From a virus, in the IMG/VR virus record IMGVR_UViG_3300045988_184160, positions 64,001 through 128,000 of that record: 64,000 bases of DNA, one strand, 5' to 3'. Below are positions 13,449 through 32,958 of the stretch, piece by piece. Position 1 is the first letter of the stretch. Every line of letters starts with the position of its first letter. The position numbers and the translations under genes are program-made. The notes under the pieces were generated by a model that was not told the DNA's origin, searched no databases, and saw only the letters and a list, made by a program, of their open reading frames with translations.

Positions 13449-13472
13449 GGGCCTTACGGGCTGCTGATCGTA

Positions 13473-13508
13473 GGGGGTGGCGCTTTGCGTGTCACCCCCT
13501 ATTTCTTT
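13473..13508 (+). terminator. rho-independent terminator-like hairpin
   Basis: gggggtg ... caccccc stem followed by tatttcttta, 25 nt after the stop of the surface-protein gene. Confidence 0.6.
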
Positions 13509-13616
13509 ATGGTTTTTTCAATATTTATTCATAAAATAATTTGTTCTTCCGGTTTTAACGGAATGTTAGAATTGGTAGTAAGGAAGAATCTCGTCAATGA
13601 TTTGGAGTTGAATTTT

Positions 13617-14093
13617 ATGGTTTTACAGCAATATGGTAATCCGCCTGCTAAGGCTGGTTGGGAGCCTTTTGGCGGGGACAGGTATTATGTGTCTCATGTG
13701 GTGGTGACTTTACCTGAAAAGACTGGTGGGGATTATAAATGTGATTTTCATTTGATTCCTGCGACGACTTTGAAGGGTAAAAATCTTGGGCGTATTGTCC
13801 AGTCTGTGACTTATACTGCGGAGAAGTATAGGGAGAAAGTTTCGGATGATAAGTGGAGGGCTAATAAGGTTACTCATGCTTTTCCTGTGGTGACTGATTT
13901 CGGGTCTGGTGCGGGTAATAAGAATGAGAAGAAGTGTATTTTTTTTGGGTTTTCTGTGCGGGGTAATGATTGTTTTGTGAGGACTGTTAATAGGGGTTTG
14001 GTGGCTTTTTCGGAGTCGTTGTTGGATGTTGATCAGGCGGCTGATTATGGGTTGCCTATTGGAGAGTATTTGACGGGGCGTGGTGTTAGATAA
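13617..14093 (+). CDS. hypothetical protein (C-depleted, G+T-rich orphan gene)
   Basis: In-frame ATG at 13617 with ggag 9 nt upstream. The track start at 13485 lies inside the preceding terminator. 158 aa with no motif recognised. Flanked by terminators on both sides. Confidence 0.55.
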   Translation: MVLQQYGNPPAKAGWEPFGGDRYYVSHVVVTLPEKTGGDYKCDFHLIPATTLKGKNLGRIVQSVTYTAEKYREKVSDDKWRANKVTHAFPVVTDFGSGAGNKNEKKCIFFGFSVRGNDCFVRTVNRGLVAFSESLLDVDQAADYGLPIGEYLTGRGVR

Positions 14094-14109
14094 CTTGGGT
14101 GCTATATGT

Positions 14110-14143
14110 CCCCAGTGGCTTTCGAGCTGCTGGGGATTTTTTG
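14110..14143 (+). terminator. rho-independent terminator
   Basis: ccccagtggc ... gctgctgggg stem followed by attttttg. Confidence 0.7.
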
Positions 14144-14171
14144 TGTCTACATCTCACCTAACTTGTTGGTT

Positions 14172-14200
14172 TTGATAATTATTGAAACATGGTCTACAAT
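14172..14200 (+). promoter_or_regulatory. sigma-70-like promoter candidate (TTGATA-17 nt-TACAAT)
   Basis: ttgata at 14172-14177, a 17-nt spacer, then tacaat at 14195-14200. It sits ~39 nt upstream of the ATG at 14239 and just after a terminator. Confidence 0.5.
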
Positions 14201-14238
14201 CTTATATAGGAGATAACAACCCGAAAGGACATAAGACC

Positions 14239-30109: not shown

Positions 30110-30153
30110 GCACCCAAAAATAAAATACGCAACATCACAAGAAAAGAGAAGAG

Positions 30154-30534
30154 GTGGACATGAGTAGCAATAAAAACAAAATCCCGTCATTTAAAGAATT
30201 TTTCAGACTCGTATCAGGCAGAGGTAAACAGCAGGCGGCACAAGGTGACCGCACACAGGGGCGGATCACTGAAATGGCGTCAACAGGGGTGAAATACCTA
30301 GACCAGGCATTCCGTGAAGCAGAGGAAAACAATCAAGAAGCACACAGGGTCTTCTTCCAATATGACCCGCAGGACATGCATCTTGCCACGGAAATAAACG
30401 CGAAAATTGAGGAGTTCTCTGAGGGTAAGTACGAAATAACCCGAGAAAACCTTGACGAACTCAACAACATACCAGGCGTCTACTCGGCGACGAAACGTAA
30501 AGGAATGGCAAGCAGAAGACGGAAAATCAGGTAG
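30154..30534 (+). CDS. hypothetical protein
   Basis: 126-aa ORF with no motif. Confidence 0.55.
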   Translation: MDMSSNKNKIPSFKEFFRLVSGRGKQQAAQGDRTQGRITEMASTGVKYLDQAFREAEENNQEAHRVFFQYDPQDMHLATEINAKIEEFSEGKYEITRENLDELNNIPGVYSATKRKGMASRRRKIR

Positions 30535-30542
30535 GCACCAGA

Positions 30543-31094
30543 ATGAAAGTAAAACCAGGAAAACCACAAAAAACCGCCCGTGTGGGCAGAACCATAGCGC
30601 CCACACGACAAGACACGCGCCTCAGTCAAAGTGACTATGTGCAGTACCTCTCACAGAAACTAGGTATCCACAAGACACGTGTCAAAAACATACTTGACAG
30701 CTACCATGCCGTAGCCATGCGGGATATCCAAGAATACCAACAAGTGTACGTCTACAAAGACATCCTAGCCACCAACAAAAACGCCAACCCAGACAACAGT
30801 GGTGTGCTCAGCAGAACCTTCGCAGCGCAATGCGGTGACGCAGCCGCTAAGGCAGGCGTACTCGGGTCTGAAGCTAACCGTGTCGTCTCAGCCTACGTGG
30901 AAACCATCACTAAACAAGCATCCAGTGAGACAGGTGCGTGCGTTTTCAAAACATTCAACCTCAAAAAACAAGGGGGACAATACAGCATCAGCAAAACACC
31001 GCATATTGACCTCCCCAACAAAGGCAACGGAGTGGTGTTCTCCGCGAAAACCCTCAACAGCCGCGCAAGACACACAGGTCAGGGCAAGAGGTAG
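30543..31094 (+). CDS. hypothetical basic protein
   Basis: 183-aa ORF, basic at both ends. Only a vague resemblance to HU/IHF-type proteins, so not called. Confidence 0.55.
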   Translation: MKVKPGKPQKTARVGRTIAPTRQDTRLSQSDYVQYLSQKLGIHKTRVKNILDSYHAVAMRDIQEYQQVYVYKDILATNKNANPDNSGVLSRTFAAQCGDAAAKAGVLGSEANRVVSAYVETITKQASSETGACVFKTFNLKKQGGQYSISKTPHIDLPNKGNGVVFSAKTLNSRARHTGQGKR

Positions 31095-31097
31095 GCT

Positions 31098-31919
31098 GTG
31101 GAAGGGAAAACTCACGTCATCGGCGGTATCAGTGCCGCACTCACAGGCACCCTGCTCTCCCAGAACGGTGTGACCGTCACACCACTGTGGGGTGGTGAAG
31201 GCATGTCACACACACTTACCGCTTTCGAGTACACGACAGCCTGCTTCACGGTGCTCGTATCAACCTACGTTTTCTCGATGGTGGGCGCAAAAATCCCAGA
31301 CCAAGACCATAACGCGCGGGCGATGCCGTACAGGGACCCGTTGGGGAAGCTCGTGTGGAGAGCCCTTCACCCTGGGAGCATGATACCCGCGCTCAAGAGG
31401 TTTGATGCGAAACACCGGTCATGGCAGACCCACAGCGACCTCACCCTGCTCGTGCTACTGGGGGCGAACATTGCGTTGTATTCGGGTCTGCTGCCGATAC
31501 CCGCGAACTCCCCCATTGGTGGGATATGGTCAATTATTTTCCTTGGGTTATCGCTCGGGGTTTTCTCACACTTGTTCCTTGACGCTATCACCAAGGAAGG
31601 TGTGTGGCTGGTGGTTTTCGGTGTTATCCCAAACAAGATATTCAGGGCGCGGGTGTTTCCTGAAAAGTTTCGGCTTGTCCCTAAAAGATCGAAATACTTC
31701 AAAACCGGTTCAGGGAAGAAAACCAGTAACGGTGTGGAAGGTAAAGACCATAAAGGCAGGACATGGGAAGACCTTGTTAACTCCCGCCTGTCGTTCTACA
31801 ACAACCTTGTGCTTGCCCTCATCATCTGCTCATGGGCTGTTTACCTGCTCACAGGGGAGAACCTGATTAACGGGGTCACAAAAATTTTGGCAGTAATGCG
31901 GGGGGAGGCTGTTCTATGA
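31098..31919 (+). CDS. YdjM-family (DUF457) membrane-bound metal-dependent hydrolase
   Basis: 273 aa with a GTG start. KTHVIGG, IPDQDH, HRSWQTHS and SHLFLDAITKEGVWL parallel the E. coli YdjM landmarks GH, PDIDH, HRGFTHS and SHILADMLTPAGVPL. Several TM helices. Confidence 0.65.
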   Translation: MEGKTHVIGGISAALTGTLLSQNGVTVTPLWGGEGMSHTLTAFEYTTACFTVLVSTYVFSMVGAKIPDQDHNARAMPYRDPLGKLVWRALHPGSMIPALKRFDAKHRSWQTHSDLTLLVLLGANIALYSGLLPIPANSPIGGIWSIIFLGLSLGVFSHLFLDAITKEGVWLVVFGVIPNKIFRARVFPEKFRLVPKRSKYFKTGSGKKTSNGVEGKDHKGRTWEDLVNSRLSFYNNLVLALIICSWAVYLLTGENLINGVTKILAVMRGEAVL

Positions 31920-32048
31920 GGTGCGTGAATTTCGCGCGACCACCCTAAGGGGAAAAGTTTAAGAGTTAAGTAAATAGTATCCGTGGTATAAGGCGCGGGT
32001 GGTGTTTACTCAGAATAAGCAACCTTTCATGAGGAGAAATATAGGAAA

Positions 32049-32909
32049 ATGGTTAAACAAATATACAAACTAGTGGCAGGCTTCATGCTTGGCATTATCC
32101 TCGTGTTCGCGGGTGGTGCAGCCGCCAACGCTTACACTCAAGAGGATGCACAGAGCGTCGCAGCGCTGTCTTCAAGCGTGTACGAGCAGGTTTCCGCCAA
32201 CAAGTACGAGGCTGCTGGTGGCGGAACTAAGAGCTCCATGATCGCTGGTTCCCGCCTTTTCACTAAGGACGAAGAGACCGGCGTGTACAAAGTGAACGAA
32301 AAAGAGTTCGCTCGCCTGTCCACCAACGGTAAGAACAAGGTCGCTGACGACGTTATCAAAGCAACCAACGAAACCGTAGCCAACGAAGAGGGTAACGAAA
32401 CCAGCCTCATCGACCAGTCCGCTAAAGACAACTGGTTCAAAGACCTGTCCAAGTCCAAGGGCCTCGGTTCACGTCTGATCAACGACACCACCTCCGAGTG
32501 GGTCCCAGACTTCGCTGCTGGTAAGCGTATCCTCGCGCCCCTGACCGGTATCATCTCAACCCTCATGGGCTTGGGTGCGATCCTGATCATGTCCCTCCTG
32601 GGTCTGCAGGTTGTTGCTGAGGTCCTGTTCATCACCATCCCCTCAACCCGTGGGTTCTTCGGTGGTGTCGATACAGGTGTCCTGAACGGTGGGGACAAGA
32701 AGGTCATCTACCAAGGCTTCGTGTCCGGTGCCGCACGTAAGGCTGTTGAGAAAGCTGACAGCAACGACGGTAAGGCGCTCGCTATCTGGGCTGGTAACAC
32801 CTTCATTAAGCTACTGGCTCTAGCTATCGTCCTCGTGTTCTTCATCAACGGTGAGATCCTGCCGTTCATCGGTGGTCTGACTGACTGGGTACACGCCCTG
32901 TTTGTCTAA
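32049..32909 (+). CDS. secreted/membrane protein, paralog family member B
   Basis: 286 aa with signal peptide LVAGFMLGIILVFAGGAAANA. The C-half holds a hydrophobic hairpin ending LQVVAEVLFITIP, the motif QGFVSGAARKAVEK and a final TM helix. Confidence 0.7.
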   Translation: MVKQIYKLVAGFMLGIILVFAGGAAANAYTQEDAQSVAALSSSVYEQVSANKYEAAGGGTKSSMIAGSRLFTKDEETGVYKVNEKEFARLSTNGKNKVADDVIKATNETVANEEGNETSLIDQSAKDNWFKDLSKSKGLGSRLINDTTSEWVPDFAAGKRILAPLTGIISTLMGLGAILIMSLLGLQVVAEVLFITIPSTRGFFGGVDTGVLNGGDKKVIYQGFVSGAARKAVEKADSNDGKALAIWAGNTFIKLLALAIVLVFFINGEILPFIGGLTDWVHALFV

Positions 32910-32958
32910 AACCGGCACCTCGGGTGCTGTAACCTGAGGGAAGAATACCTGATGTGAA

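What the first reader, a model, noticed from the sequence alone, without database searches (positions are those of the whole stretch)
13450..32950. Saw-tooth alternation of A+C-rich and G+T-rich blocks on the coding strand, often within one ORF
Seen (hand counts of 120-nt windows): 14581-14700 has 11 G and 14 T, i.e. 79% A+C (54 C, 41 A). 13861-13980 has 12 C and 24 A, i.e. 70% G+T. Within the single ORF 22971..25133, 23281-23400 is ~68% A+C and 24841-24960 is ~65% G+T. 30541-30660 is ~68% A+C. By eye the blocks switch near 14200, 15000, 15730, 16030, 17450, 18340, 20150, 21280, 22470, 24000, 25200, 26500, 27560, 28200, 30040 and 31100. Several G+T to A+C resets coincide with terminators or unit starts (14110, 17979, 25152, 30073). 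All genes are on the same strand, so gene orientation does not explain it. Known: exposure of one strand as ssDNA (C and A deamination) makes that strand G+T-rich, as in the mitochondrial heavy strand. C-rich G-poor RNA is unstructured and is the preferred Rho loading substrate. Inference: the cause may be a patchy strand-specific mutational history (transcription, R-loops or conjugative ssDNA), selection for unstructured 5' RNA, or fine-scale recombination mosaicism. I cannot tell which, and I do not recognise this pattern as a described feature.
Basis: partly seen in the sequence, partly recalled or inferred. Interest (0 to 1): 0.65.

Follow-up and report, generated by a model that had tools for sequence, protein, structure and literature searches.

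The report
Strand-flipping synonymous skew mosaic in phage
In this roughly 250-kb uncultivated phage-like genome, neighbouring stretches of 0.3-2 kb have silent codon positions made almost only of G/T or almost only of A/C, which looks like repeated one-strand C-to-T and A-to-G mutation and was not seen in three reference phages.

Summary
The A+C versus G+T alternation sits mainly at third codon positions. The A/C fraction there (M3) runs from 0.02 (13860-14084) to 0.94 (14557-14706), and 4-fold sites span 0.00-1.00. G+C and purine content at the same sites stay flat.

It is not an amino-acid effect or chance. Shuffles that keep the protein give z=22, and within-gene codon shuffles give z=14. 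M3 variance is 5.8 times binomial here, against 1.0-1.2 in T4, phiKZ and lambda.

Ten relatives at 92-95% identity share the blocks. A 50%-identical syntenic clade has equally strong blocks, mostly at other positions. It keeps the same G+T-to-A+C flip at an iteron (origin-like) site and at the orthologue of the 14108 terminator.

Recent lineage-specific substitutions occur at uniform per-site rates, so most blocks are decaying and are not maintained by selection. These substitutions also cluster by direction in both clades (z=6 and z=5). One 1.5-kb tract has 17 C>T plus 18 A>G against 4 reverse changes.

Best reading: episodic, strand-specific transition mutagenesis of transiently single-stranded DNA, partly anchored at DNA ends, hairpins or the origin. 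The mechanism is inferred, not shown. I found no published description.

The parts
12900..14093 (+). G+T-rich ramp (K block) over the 3' end of the 1630-aa gene and gene 13485-14093. M3 falls from about 0.3 to 0.02 towards the terminator.
   Evidence: One search gives 50-codon M3 of 0.32, 0.36, 0.28, 0.18 ... 0.12, 0.06, 0.02, 0.02. One search gives M3 0.28 for 12900-13448 and M3 0.12 (4-fold 0.10) for 13560-14093. The gene is real: its C-terminus aligns with the L002 orthologue, and variable sites are mostly at position 3.
14108..14137 (+). Strong hairpin terminator at the largest G+T-to-A+C flip in this part of the region.
   Evidence: One search finds a 13-pair stem followed by a T run. M3 is 0.05 on the left and 0.68 on the right of gap 14094-14181. 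L002 has a hairpin and the same flip at the orthologous gap.
14182..15000 (+). A+C-rich block (M block) covering the whole HTH_3 (DicA/Cro-like) gene. M3 rises from 0.64 to 0.94.
   Evidence: M3 0.82, 4-fold 0.83, third positions A77 C146 G28 T22. The orthologue in L002 is also A+C-rich, at 0.60-0.78. Pfam and NCBIfam give weak HTH hits.
15002..15370 (+). G+T-leaning HTH_36 gene. It lies in a segment (about 14977-15604) that is not homologous to relatives L006 and L013.
   Evidence: M3 is 0.32. The blastn alignments stop at 14976 and resume at 15605. The L002 orthologue is 342 aa and its 5' part has M3 0.14-0.26.
15371..15727 (.). Origin-like non-coding region: three perfect 23-nt palindrome-containing repeats (15379-15448) followed by about 280 nt at 30% G+C overall. 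A G+T-to-A+C flip occurs across it.
   Evidence: M3 is 0.20 on the left and 0.85 on the right. Contigs of four other assemblies end at 15415-15702. In L002, six 21-nt iterons (1434-1608) sit inside the HTH_36 gene exactly where M3 flips from 0.14 to 0.76.
15728..16030 (+). Short, strong A+C-rich block at the 5' end of gene 15728-16294.
   Evidence: M3 is 0.82 and 4-fold M is 0.78. An abrupt drop of -0.45 follows at 16033.
16381..17451 (+). G+T-rich block over the dUTPase 3' part and the SSB gene.
   Evidence: M3 is 0.30 and 4-fold M is 0.22, with a minimum of 0.16 at 17140-17289. The SSB orthologue in L002 has M3 0.08-0.12. Pfam identifies dUTPase and SSB.
17978..18005 (+). Hairpin terminator followed by an A+C-rich leader and an A+C-rich gene start.
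   Evidence: One search finds an 11-pair stem. The gap 17951-18070 is 64% A+C, and 18071-18445 has M3 0.67.
18071..18445 (+). Moderate A+C-rich block at the 5' end of gene 18071-19000.
   Evidence: M3 is 0.66-0.72 or 0.67.
21301..22200 (+). G+T-rich block inside gene 21184-22482. The L002 orthologue is A+C-rich here.
   Evidence: M3 is 0.33 and 4-fold M is 0.24. Window values of 0.17-0.28 face L002 values of 0.53-0.78 at aligned codons.
23101..23930 (+). A+C-rich block inside the 720-aa ORF (22971-25133). It is absent from the L002 orthologue.
   Evidence: M3 is 0.72 and 4-fold M is 0.69. Window values of 0.72-0.88 face L002 values of 0.28-0.53. All ten close relatives share the block.
24561..25133 (+). 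G+T-rich ramp at the 3' end of the same 720-aa ORF, reaching M3 0.05.
   Evidence: M3 is 0.19 and 4-fold M is 0.12. The last aligned 40 codons have 0.05 in the window and 0.23 in L002.
25152..25187 (+). Strong hairpin terminator at the largest flip in the window (+0.70 to +0.75).
   Evidence: One search finds a 16-pair stem. M3 is 0.10 on the left and 0.80 on the right. The jump scan gives +0.75 at 25115.
25295..26400 (+). A+C-rich block declining downstream over gene 25295-25777 and the 5' part of gene 25847-27175.
   Evidence: M3 is 0.70 and 4-fold M is 0.66. The 300-nt bins read 0.77, 0.76, 0.63, 0.67 and then 0.47.
27561..27950 (+). A+C-rich block inside gene 27183-28031. It starts at the Thr/Ser/Pro/Glu-rich linker after a transmembrane segment.
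   Evidence: M3 is 0.73 and 4-fold M is 0.68, with a jump of +0.50 at 27596. The L002 orthologue has 0.33-0.38.
30543..31094 (+). A+C-rich block covering gene 30543-31094, downstream of hairpin 30073-30109.
   Evidence: M3 is 0.73. The L002 orthologue has 0.28-0.40. The hairpin has a 13-bp stem.
19973..21472 (+). Tract of strand-coordinated transitions found only in the window's lineage.
   Evidence: There are 34 changes to G/T against 4 to A/C, where 55% is expected from composition (p=5.6e-6). The spectrum for 19815-21314 is 18 A>G, 17 C>T, 3 G>A, 1 T>C and 7 transversions, with 21 of 43 coding changes at codon positions 1-2.
11708..13207 (+). A second window-lineage tract directed towards G/T, just outside the flagged interval. 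Relative L013 has the opposite direction in the same place.
   Evidence: The window has 29:2 (p=7e-7) and L013 has 1:15 (p=9e-5). The spectra are 22 C>T plus 10 A>G for the window and 7 G>A plus 7 T>C for L013.

Best explanation
The saw-tooth is a mutational footprint, not a coding or selective signal.

Proposed mechanism:
- In stretches from about 0.2 kb or less up to about 2 kb, one DNA strand of this roughly 250-kb phage-like genome has repeatedly taken C-to-T and A-to-G transitions. In neighbouring stretches the complementary strand was hit.
- Purifying selection removes most amino-acid-changing hits. Silent third positions therefore drift to nearly pure G/T or nearly pure A/C, while G+C and purine content stay unchanged and the protein is only partly dragged along.
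- The most likely source is damage (deamination of C to U and of A to hypoxanthine), or inaccurate copying, of whichever strand is transiently single-stranded.
- At the three strongest flips the polarity is G+T-rich upstream and A+C-rich downstream. These are terminator 14108-14137, the iteron/AT-rich site 15371-15727 and terminator 25152-25187. This is the polarity expected if a DNA end or break forms there and 5'-to-3' resection leaves the 3'-ended strand single-stranded on each side. It is a phage counterpart of break-associated, strand-coordinated mutation clusters.
- Elsewhere events are sporadic and lineage-specific. The process is episodic, and between episodes blocks decay under an ordinary, symmetric substitution process.

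Shown: the synonymous location of the skew, its transition basis, the joint C and A involvement, strand-coordinated clustering in two clades, the non-equilibrium state of the blocks, conserved polarity at two anchor sites, and absence from T4, phiKZ and lambda.

Inferred: the single-stranded state, the chemistry, and end resection.
For: 1. The signal is silent-site dominated. M3 ranges 0.02-0.94 and 4-fold M ranges 0.00-1.00, and shuffles that keep the protein are exceeded with z about 22.
2. It runs along the transition axis. C/(C+T) goes 0.12 to 0.91 and A/(A+G) goes 0.12 to 0.78 together. Purine content at position 3 is uncorrelated with M3 (r=-0.005) and G+C at position 3 changes little.
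3. The pressure acts at DNA level. Where window and L002 differ in M3, amino-acid replacements shift positions 1+2 the same way (-0.40 +/- 0.07 to +0.18 +/- 0.04). An example is a net 11 Val-for-Ile replacements.
4. The blocks are not maintained now. Singleton substitutions in 10 relatives occur at similar per-site rates in all block classes. The implied equilibrium is about 0.43-0.49 in five classes and 0.70 in the most G+T-rich one, where current M3 is 0.19. In the extremes the counts are 3 versus 31 and 42 versus 9.
5. Directional events exist. Same-direction adjacency is 508/813 against a composition-only null of 421 +/- 14 (z=6.0). Individual tracts show 34:4, 29:2 and 1:15. In the second clade an orientation test that does not depend on composition gives 514/873 against 441 +/- 15 (z=5.0).
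6. Polarity at anchor sites is conserved across near-saturated silent divergence. 4-fold identity between clades is 0.33 against 0.25 expected by chance. Both clades show G+T | A+C at the iterons, and both show it at the terminator after gene 13485-14093.
7. The trait belongs to this lineage. Overdispersion of M3 is 3.5 in the window and 3.3 in L002, against 1.0-1.2 in T4, phiKZ and lambda.
Against: - No direct evidence exists for DNA ends, breaks or single-stranded intermediates at the anchor sites. The contig ends at 15415-15702 could simply reflect poor assembly through AT-rich sequence.
- The A+C block 14182-15000 rises away from terminator 14108 instead of decaying. Several sharp borders lie inside genes with no recognisable feature (20116, 22837, 23966, 27596).
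- Spontaneous adenine deamination is chemically much slower than cytosine deamination (established knowledge). Yet A>G is about as frequent as C>T in the tracts and the blocks.
- No sequence context typical of a deaminase was found.
- The average directional correlation among recent differences dies out within about 200 nt, which is shorter than the blocks.
- Near-saturation (M3 0.02) needs a long or intense bias, whereas present rates are uniform. An unexplained on/off switch must therefore be assumed.
- The apparent 2.4-kb spacing of the teeth is not statistically significant.
Confidence: 0.4

Rival explanations
1. Transcription and R-loop-associated mutagenesis. The non-template strand is exposed in transcription bubbles or R-loops and takes C>T and A>G changes. 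G+T-rich blocks would mark heavy sense transcription, especially near terminators. A+C-rich blocks would mark heavy antisense transcription. G-rich RNA stabilises R-loops, so either state could reinforce itself.
For: G+T-rich ramps end at terminators 14108 and 25152. Excess G+T on the coding strand of transcribed DNA is an established asymmetry. Weak minus-strand promoter-like matches lie at the right edges of three A+C blocks: 16161-16134, 18672-18645 and 26070-26041.
Against: Promoter-like matches are no more frequent than in shuffles (20 found against 15.4 +/- 3.7). Four other A+C blocks have no such match. A+C blocks reach the same amplitude as G+T blocks, which would need antisense transcription to exceed sense transcription in conserved genes. 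There is no general gradient along genes. Present substitution rates are uniform.
Confidence: 0.15
2. A replication-initiation footprint. A lower-fidelity initiating or gap-filling polymerase copies a defined strand for a few hundred nucleotides on each side of the iteron origin and at other fixed priming sites. This would leave a strand-specific error gradient, as error-prone Pol I does next to the ColE1 origin.
For: A polarity flip sits exactly at iteron arrays in both clades. A replication-type module (HTH_36 protein, dUTPase, SSB) surrounds it. The strongest and only conserved blocks, at 13.5-17.4 kb, flank it.
Against: The sign is opposite to the classical origin pattern, where the leading strand is G+T-rich. 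Here A+C lies to the right and G+T to the left. Matching that sign would need A:C rather than the commoner G:T mispairs. The model does not explain blocks 8-15 kb away that differ between clades. The origin function of the iterons is itself inferred.
Confidence: 0.15
3. Selection on a nucleic-acid property. Strands that are purely A+C or purely G+T cannot form Watson-Crick hairpins or palindromes. The blocks could therefore be selected for unstructured mRNA (translation, Rho loading) or for avoiding palindromic restriction sites in an early-entering region.
For: 5' leaders are strongly A+C-rich: 80% in 17452-17497 and 61-66% in three other gaps after terminators. The block pattern at 13.5-17.4 kb is conserved between clades despite near-saturated silent sites. 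Under this idea either sign would serve equally, which fits the mixed signs.
Against: Substitutions that erode the blocks occur at the same per-site rate as elsewhere: 0.094 for G/T-to-A/C changes inside G+T blocks against about 0.09-0.12 in general. Most blocks are not conserved, and some are inverted in the sister clade. There is no general 5' effect across genes. Mean A+C in the 40 nt upstream of starts is only 0.55 against 0.52 genome-wide.
Confidence: 0.12
4. Fine-scale recombination mosaicism. The blocks are segments imported from relatives whose homologous genes carry a different strand skew.
For: One sharp border (14976/15000) coincides with a replaced, non-homologous segment. Ordinary imports are visible in the population: L012 at 16215-16814, L007 at 19215-19514 and the window at 29369-30080.
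Against: The visible imports have balanced directions and many transversions (for example 8 versus 19 with 16 others, and 27 versus 32 with 23 others). The directional tract has 34:4 with 7 others. Import only moves the problem, because some genome must first reach 2% or 94% A/C at silent sites. All ten relatives share the blocks.
Confidence: 0.08
5. Amino-acid composition or chance. A+C-rich codons encode Thr, Pro, Gln, Lys, Asn and His, and G+T-rich codons encode Val, Gly, Phe, Trp and Leu. The blocks would then simply mirror hydrophilic and hydrophobic protein segments.
For: Positions 1+2 do co-vary with the blocks (r=0.67). Block 27561-27950 starts at a Thr/Ser/Pro/Glu-rich linker.
Against: With the protein held fixed, shuffling synonymous codons cuts the sd from 0.107 to 0.062 (z about 22). 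Position 3 has the largest variance, and 4-fold sites reach 0.00 and 1.00.
Confidence: 0.01

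Closest known systems
Strand asymmetry gradient of vertebrate mitochondrial DNA (heavy-strand single-stranded time)
   Same: C>T and A>G accumulate together on the strand left single-stranded. The effect is read at third and 4-fold positions. It forms gradients with distance from a fixed point. Amino-acid composition is dragged along.
   Different: Mitochondria show one polarity and one gradient per genome at a steady state. Here the polarity alternates every 0.3-2 kb, most blocks are out of equilibrium and lineage-specific, and the genome is a double-stranded phage-like element.
Strand-coordinated mutation clusters (kataegis) at resected double-strand breaks, described in yeast and human cancers
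   Same: Runs of same-strand base changes occur in single lineages. The polarity switch across a point has the sign expected for 3' tails.
   Different: Kataegis is cytosine-only with a TpC context and is somatic. Here C>T and A>G are about equal, no context was found, and the changes accumulate over evolutionary time to near saturation of silent sites.
Replication-associated G+T excess (GC/keto skew) of bacterial chromosomes and large DNA viruses (PMC2211322)
   Same: It is an excess of G+T on one strand that is independent of gene orientation, with a sign change at replication landmarks.
   Different: Known cases span 10 kb to megabases and are weak. Here the blocks are sub-gene in size and extreme, and the sign at the origin-like iterons is the reverse of the classical one. 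T4, phiKZ and lambda show no local overdispersion.
Transcription-associated mutational asymmetry (non-template strand C>T and A>G)
   Same: It gives G+T enrichment of the coding strand and could account for the G+T ramps before terminators.
   Different: It predicts one sign only, for genes that are all co-oriented. Half of the blocks here are A+C-rich on the coding strand.
Origin-proximal footprint of error-prone DNA polymerase I on ColE1 plasmids
   Same: It is a strand-specific substitution gradient that decays over hundreds of nucleotides from an origin.
   Different: It is an engineered system with one origin. It has not been shown to shape natural sequence composition. Here many blocks are far from the iterons.

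Membership tests
ssDNA-exposure (deamination-type) strand skew | The skew is present at synonymous and 4-fold degenerate sites. | tested here: met
   M3 ranges 0.02-0.94 and 4-fold M ranges 0.00-1.00. r(positions 1+2, 4-fold) is 0.65.
ssDNA-exposure (deamination-type) strand skew | C>T and A>G occur together on the same strand, with purine and G+C content unchanged. | tested here: met
   C/(C+T) and A/(A+G) shift together, and purine content at position 3 has r=-0.005 with M3. Tract spectra are 17 C>T plus 18 A>G, and 22 C>T plus 10 A>G.
ssDNA-exposure (deamination-type) strand skew | The composition is at equilibrium with the local substitution process (a persistent gradient). | tested here: not met
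   Singleton rates are uniform across block classes. The implied equilibrium is about 0.43-0.49 in five classes and 0.70 in the most G+T-rich class, where current M3 is 0.19.
ssDNA-exposure (deamination-type) strand skew | A single-stranded intermediate is demonstrated for the affected strand. | not testable with these tools
   This needs ssDNA or end mapping in infected cells.
Break-associated strand-coordinated clusters (kataegis-like) | Same-strand changes are clustered within single lineages. | tested here: met
   Runs tests give z=6.0 and z=5.0 in the second clade. Individual tracts show 34:4, 29:2 and 1:15.
Break-associated strand-coordinated clusters (kataegis-like) | The polarity switches at a point, with the 3'-ended strand mutated on each side. 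| tested here: inconclusive
   The sign fits at 14108, 15371-15727 and 25152, and at two orthologous sites in L002. Block 14182-15000 has the wrong shape, and no break has been demonstrated.
Break-associated strand-coordinated clusters (kataegis-like) | A deaminase sequence context (for example TpC). | tested here: not met
   The 5' and 3' neighbours of C>T and A>G changes are close to background.
Replication-associated skew | A polarity switch at the replication origin. | tested here: inconclusive
   A switch lies at the iteron arrays in both clades, but the origin function is only inferred from iterons, AT-rich DNA and the adjacent HTH_36 gene.
Replication-associated skew | The leading strand is G+T-rich (A+C to the left and G+T to the right of the origin on the + strand), with domains of replichore size. 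| tested here: not met
   The observed sign is the reverse: M3 0.20 on the left and 0.85 on the right. Blocks are 0.3-2 kb.
Transcription-associated asymmetry | The coding strand is G+T-rich in transcribed genes, with a single sign for co-oriented genes. | tested here: not met
   All genes are on the + strand, yet seven blocks are A+C-rich with M3 0.67-0.82.
Codon-usage or amino-acid-composition heterogeneity | The signal is explained by the protein sequence or by gene-wide codon preference. | tested here: not met
   The synonymous shuffle gives z about 22 and the within-gene codon shuffle gives z about 14. Amino-acid replacements follow the silent-site skew.
Recombination mosaic | Block borders coincide with recombination breakpoints. 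| tested here: inconclusive
   One border (14976/15000 to 15605) does. The blocks predate the sampled population, so the other borders cannot be tested.

The most novel reading that the evidence does not exclude
This family of roughly 250-kb phage-like elements is subject to a dedicated hypermutation process, encoded by the host or by the element itself. The process converts both C and A on exposed single strands, as a dual deaminase or a transition-prone strand-specific polymerase would. It acts in bursts and leaves kataegis-like footprints. Those footprints mark the genome's origin, ends and break hotspots, so replication and recombination intermediates of an uncultivated virus could be read from sequence alone.
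Probability: 0.22. Interest if true: 0.88.

Novelty: new variant of a known kind. Interest (0 to 1): 0.7.

Why it matters
Strand compositional asymmetry is a standard way to infer replication and transcription history, but it is known as a weak, large-scale signal. Here it is extreme, with silent sites 98% G/T next to 94% A/C. It is also sub-gene in scale, of both polarities, dynamic between clades, and absent from T4, phiKZ and lambda.

If the mutational reading is right, three things follow:
- Double-stranded phages can undergo strand-coordinated C>T plus A>G mutagenesis strong enough to remodel codon usage and amino-acid content locally.
- Such footprints could locate origins, ends or break hotspots in uncultivated genomes.
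- The trigger could be a host defence, a repair defect or a polymerase, and finding it becomes a well-defined problem.

There are also practical consequences. Skewed blocks generate long spurious ORFs on both strands. They also violate the stationarity assumptions of codon models, dN/dS estimates and composition-based binning or detection of horizontal transfer.

Tried and rejected
- **Headful-packaging series.** I tested whether the teeth are spaced by a terminal redundancy of about 2.4 kb. The periodogram peak (power 0.353) is below the block-shuffle 95% level (0.471) and the secondary autocorrelation is only 0.10-0.16. Not supported.
- **General 5'-to-3' gradient within genes.** First-third minus last-third M3 is +0.03 (p=0.21) in the window and -0.02 in L002. 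Rejected.
- **Deaminase-type sequence context.** None found.
- **Frequency-class test for selection.** The implied equilibrium approaches current composition at higher minor-allele counts. That is what loss of polarisation produces, so the test is uninformative.
- **Three-taxon parsimony.** It suggested lineage L003 was reversing the blocks. With ten lineages this is explained by composition-driven decay.
- **Identifying the element and host.** There is no megablast match in plasmids or phages. There are no PHROG, NCBIfam or Rfam hits for the core genes. The 720-aa protein has no relative in reference genomes. The best TnpB relatives are only 35% identical.
- **A third clade.** Only two clades exist in the collections searched.
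- **Literature.** Four searches found no description of this pattern. PMC2211322 covers G+T excess in large DNA viruses only at scales above 10 kb.
- **Excluded sequence.** L014 was left out of the counts because it has 646 gap openings in 18.6 kb.

Full report
**Check of the observation.** All credible genes between 13.4 and 33 kb are on the + strand. I measure the alternation as M, the fraction of A+C, in 120-nt coding windows. Its sd in the region is 0.107. When synonymous codons are shuffled with the protein kept, the sd is 0.0617 +/- 0.0020. When codons are shuffled within each gene, it is 0.0832 +/- 0.0017. The pattern is therefore not chance, not amino-acid composition, and not a gene-wide codon preference.

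**Where the signal sits.** It is strongest at third codon positions. In 40-codon windows the sd of M3 is 0.193 in the region, 0.123 outside it and 0.079 binomial. In 50-codon windows M3 falls to 0.02 at 13860-14084 and rises to 0.94 at 14557-14706, on either side of one terminator. At 4-fold degenerate sites the range is 0.00-1.00.

**Which compositional axis varies.** At third positions C/(C+T) runs from 0.12 to 0.91 and A/(A+G) from 0.12 to 0.78, and the two move together. Purine content is uncorrelated with M3 (r=-0.005) and G+C changes little. This is the amino/keto axis: paired transitions on one strand. In the same windows the variance of M3 is 3.5 times binomial for the whole window. 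It is 5.8 times for 13.4-33 kb, 2.7 for 33-64 kb and 1.8 for 1-13.4 kb. In 50 kb of T4, 50 kb of phiKZ and 24 kb of lambda it is 1.10, 1.00 and 1.24. The trait is unusual and is not confined to the flagged interval, although it peaks there.

**What the element is.**
- There is no near match in the plasmid or phage collections.
- Most proteins have no family assignment. Those recognised include two HTH proteins, dUTPase, SSB, three TnpB copies, an FHA/PP2C/Ser-Thr-kinase cluster, an FtsK-like ATPase and a Dam-type methylase.
- The 720-aa protein has only two relatives among 5.8 billion proteins.
- Close relatives (91-95% nucleotide identity) lie on contigs of 243-264 kb, one of them an IMG/VR viral contig.
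- A second clade (L002 and L015, contigs of 258-263 kb, 42% G+C) is fully syntenic at about 50% amino-acid identity.

**Comparative evidence.**
- All ten close relatives share the block pattern, so the blocks are older than this population.
- The second clade has blocks of equal strength (overdispersion 3.25), but mostly at other places. Over 135 aligned 40-codon windows r(M3) is only 0.23. Some genes are inverted in sign: 21301-22200 is G+T-rich in the window and A+C-rich in L002, while 23101-23930, 27561-27950 and 30543-31094 are A+C-rich only in the window.
- Silent sites between the clades are nearly saturated. 4-fold identity is 0.33 against 0.25 expected.
- The exception is 13.5-17.4 kb, where the order is the same in both clades: G+T | terminator | A+C (HTH_3 gene) | G+T (HTH_36 gene 5' part) | iterons | A+C or neutral | G+T (SSB).
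- In the window the iterons are three perfect 23-nt repeats with a palindromic core, followed by AT-rich DNA (15371-15727, 30% G+C). In L002 six 21-nt iterons lie inside the longer HTH_36 gene, exactly where M3 flips from 0.14 to 0.76.

**Mutation or selection.**
- Where the two clades differ in M3, their amino-acid differences shift codon positions 1+2 in the same direction, from -0.40 +/- 0.07 to +0.18 +/- 0.04. Val-for-Ile is the top replacement. The pressure therefore acts on DNA and not on the wobble position.
- I polarised 1,069 singleton substitutions in ten lineages. Per-site transition rates at third positions are about the same in every block class. The implied equilibrium M is 0.43-0.49 in five classes and 0.70 in the most G+T-rich class, where current M3 is 0.19. 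It is 0.43 in the most A+C-rich class, where current M3 is 0.78. In those two extreme classes, changes that erode the block outnumber changes that build it by 31 to 3 and 42 to 9.
- The blocks are therefore not at equilibrium. They are not being maintained by selection or by a constant local mutation bias. They are decaying.
- An apparent trend with allele frequency is what loss of polarisation would produce, so it is not evidence for selection.

**How blocks could arise.**
- Lineage-specific transitions are strand-coordinated beyond what local composition predicts. Same-direction neighbours number 508 of 813 against 421 +/- 14 (z=6.0).
- The clearest tract, window 19973-21472, has 34 changes to G/T against 4 to A/C (p=5.6e-6). 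It has 18 A>G, 17 C>T and few transversions, and about half of its coding changes are non-synonymous.
- Window 11708-13207 has 29:2, and relative L013 has 1:15 in the same place.
- Ordinary recombination imports seen in the same alignments have balanced directions and many transversions.
- In the second clade I tested which of the two genomes carries G/T at each transition difference. This test does not depend on composition, and it gives 514 of 873 same-orientation neighbours against 441 +/- 15 (z=5.0).
- On average the directional correlation fades within about 200 nt in both clades. Most recent events are therefore short, and kilobase tracts are rarer.
- No neighbouring-base context was found.

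**Relation to landmarks.**
- The three largest G+T-to-A+C jumps lie at terminator 14108-14137 (+0.62), the iteron/AT-rich site (+0.65) and terminator 25152-25187 (+0.70).
- Terminators 17978 and 30073 show only +0.12 and +0.15.
- Over all 29 intergenic gaps of at least 25 nt the mean jump is +0.12, against a background sd of 0.157. In L002 it is +0.08 over 13 gaps.
- There is no general gradient within genes, and the apparent 2.4-kb spacing of the teeth is not significant.
- One sharp A+C-to-G+T border (14976/15000) is the edge of a segment that is not homologous to relatives L006 and L013.
- Several other borders lie inside genes without any feature I could recognise.

**Interpretation.**
- The polarity at the anchor sites (G+T upstream, A+C downstream on the + strand) is the reverse of the classical origin pattern, where the leading strand is G+T-rich.
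- It is also the reverse of what displaced-strand or break-induced nascent-strand exposure would give.
- It is what 5'-to-3' resection of a DNA end or break predicts. The 3'-ended + strand is exposed on the left and the 3'-ended - strand on the right. If the exposed strand takes C>T and A>G, the observed signs follow. This step is inference from established models of resection and of strand-coordinated clusters.
- I therefore favour episodic, strand-specific transition mutagenesis of transiently single-stranded DNA, partly anchored at ends, hairpins or the origin-like site. Purifying selection would filter the non-synonymous hits.
- Weak points:
  - There is no direct evidence for ends or single strands.
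  - The shape of block 14182-15000 does not fit.
  - A>G is as frequent as C>T, although adenine deaminates much more slowly than cytosine.
  - Recent events are short compared with the blocks.
  - The model has to assume an on/off switch.
- Rival explanations (R-loops with antisense transcription, an initiating-polymerase footprint, selection for unpaired RNA or palindrome avoidance, mosaic import) are listed with their evidence. Amino-acid composition and chance are excluded.

**Novelty.** Four full-text searches found no description of a sub-gene mosaic of amino/keto skew at silent sites in phages. Published G+T-excess analyses of large DNA viruses concern segments longer than 10 kb (PMC2211322). 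I class the finding as a new variant of a known kind (strand-asymmetric mutational skew), with an unresolved mechanism.

Noticed in passing
window 15371-15727; L002 1434-1608: This is a candidate replication origin. The window has three perfect 23-nt repeats with a 19-nt palindromic core (15379-15448), followed by about 280 nt of AT-rich DNA. In the sister clade six 21-nt iterons lie inside the longer (342-aa) HTH_36 gene, as in lambda gene O. Contigs of four independent assemblies end at window 15415-15702. That could mean physical ends or only poor assembly of AT-rich DNA.
   Followed up: partly
window 14977-15604: This segment holds the 122-aa HTH_36 gene, the iterons and part of the AT-rich DNA. 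It has no blastn match in relatives L006 and L013, which carry a different 650-670-nt segment there. This looks like a module swap at the putative origin.
   Followed up: partly
window 33222-34454, 35494-36747, 44284-45114 (-); L007 1101-2549: The window has three TnpB (IS605 OrfB) genes. The first lies in about 1.5 kb (33029-34508) that is absent from relative L001, so it is an insertion polymorphism. L007 carries a TnpB-like sequence upstream of the position equivalent to 13529. The best TnpB relatives in reference genomes are only 35% identical.
   Followed up: partly
window 14531-14845 (+), 14773-15120 (-), 16792-17142 (-), 17126-17497 (+), 23186-23515 (+): The skewed blocks produce long ORFs in wrong frames and on the wrong strand. 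Every stop codon needs T together with A or G, and stretches that are nearly pure A+C or G+T lack them. One example is a 124-codon false N-terminal extension of the glutaredoxin-like gene, which overlaps the SSB gene. Gene callers could be misled here.
   Followed up: partly
window 17452-17497, 17951-18070, 25134-25294, 25778-25846, 30037-30153: The 5' leaders are strikingly rich in A and C. 17452-17497 is 80% A+C, and the gaps after terminators are 61-66%. This holds even where the flanking coding sequence is not skewed. It may be a separate, selected feature (an unstructured leader) that adds to the reset at unit starts.
   Followed up: partly
10-lineage alignment of window 15615-28990: Among 1,069 singleton substitutions, transversions that keep the amino/keto class (A<>C, G<>T: 184) are three times as frequent as those that change it (A<>T, C<>G: 62). 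I have no explanation for this.
   Followed up: no
L012 690-2520, relative to window 16390-16558; window 16215-16814: Relative L012 has about 1.8 kb of extra sequence within the dUTPase region. Next to it is a cluster of 43 balanced substitutions in 300 nt. This could be an insertion (an intron or homing-endonuclease gene?) together with a recombination import.
   Followed up: no
window 29369-30080: This segment is much more divergent from L001 and L003 than its surroundings, with 65 changes to G/T, 63 to A/C and 44 other differences. The directions are balanced and there are many transversions. It ends near the 30073 hairpin. It is an ordinary recombination import and a useful contrast to the directional tracts.
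   Followed up: partly
window 16765-17451 and 3822-8071: The SSB has a Gly/Pro/Gln-rich tail ending in EEEPPF. From memory this resembles actinobacterial SSB tails. An FHA, PP2C phosphatase and Ser/Thr kinase cluster lies upstream. These are weak hints about the host that I did not test.
   Followed up: no
L014 (BNJU01004956.1): This relative aligns to window 10953-29138 at 85% identity with 646 gap openings. It looks like an indel-rich long-read assembly. I excluded it from the substitution counts except as a fourth sequence for 10953-14990.
   Followed up: partly
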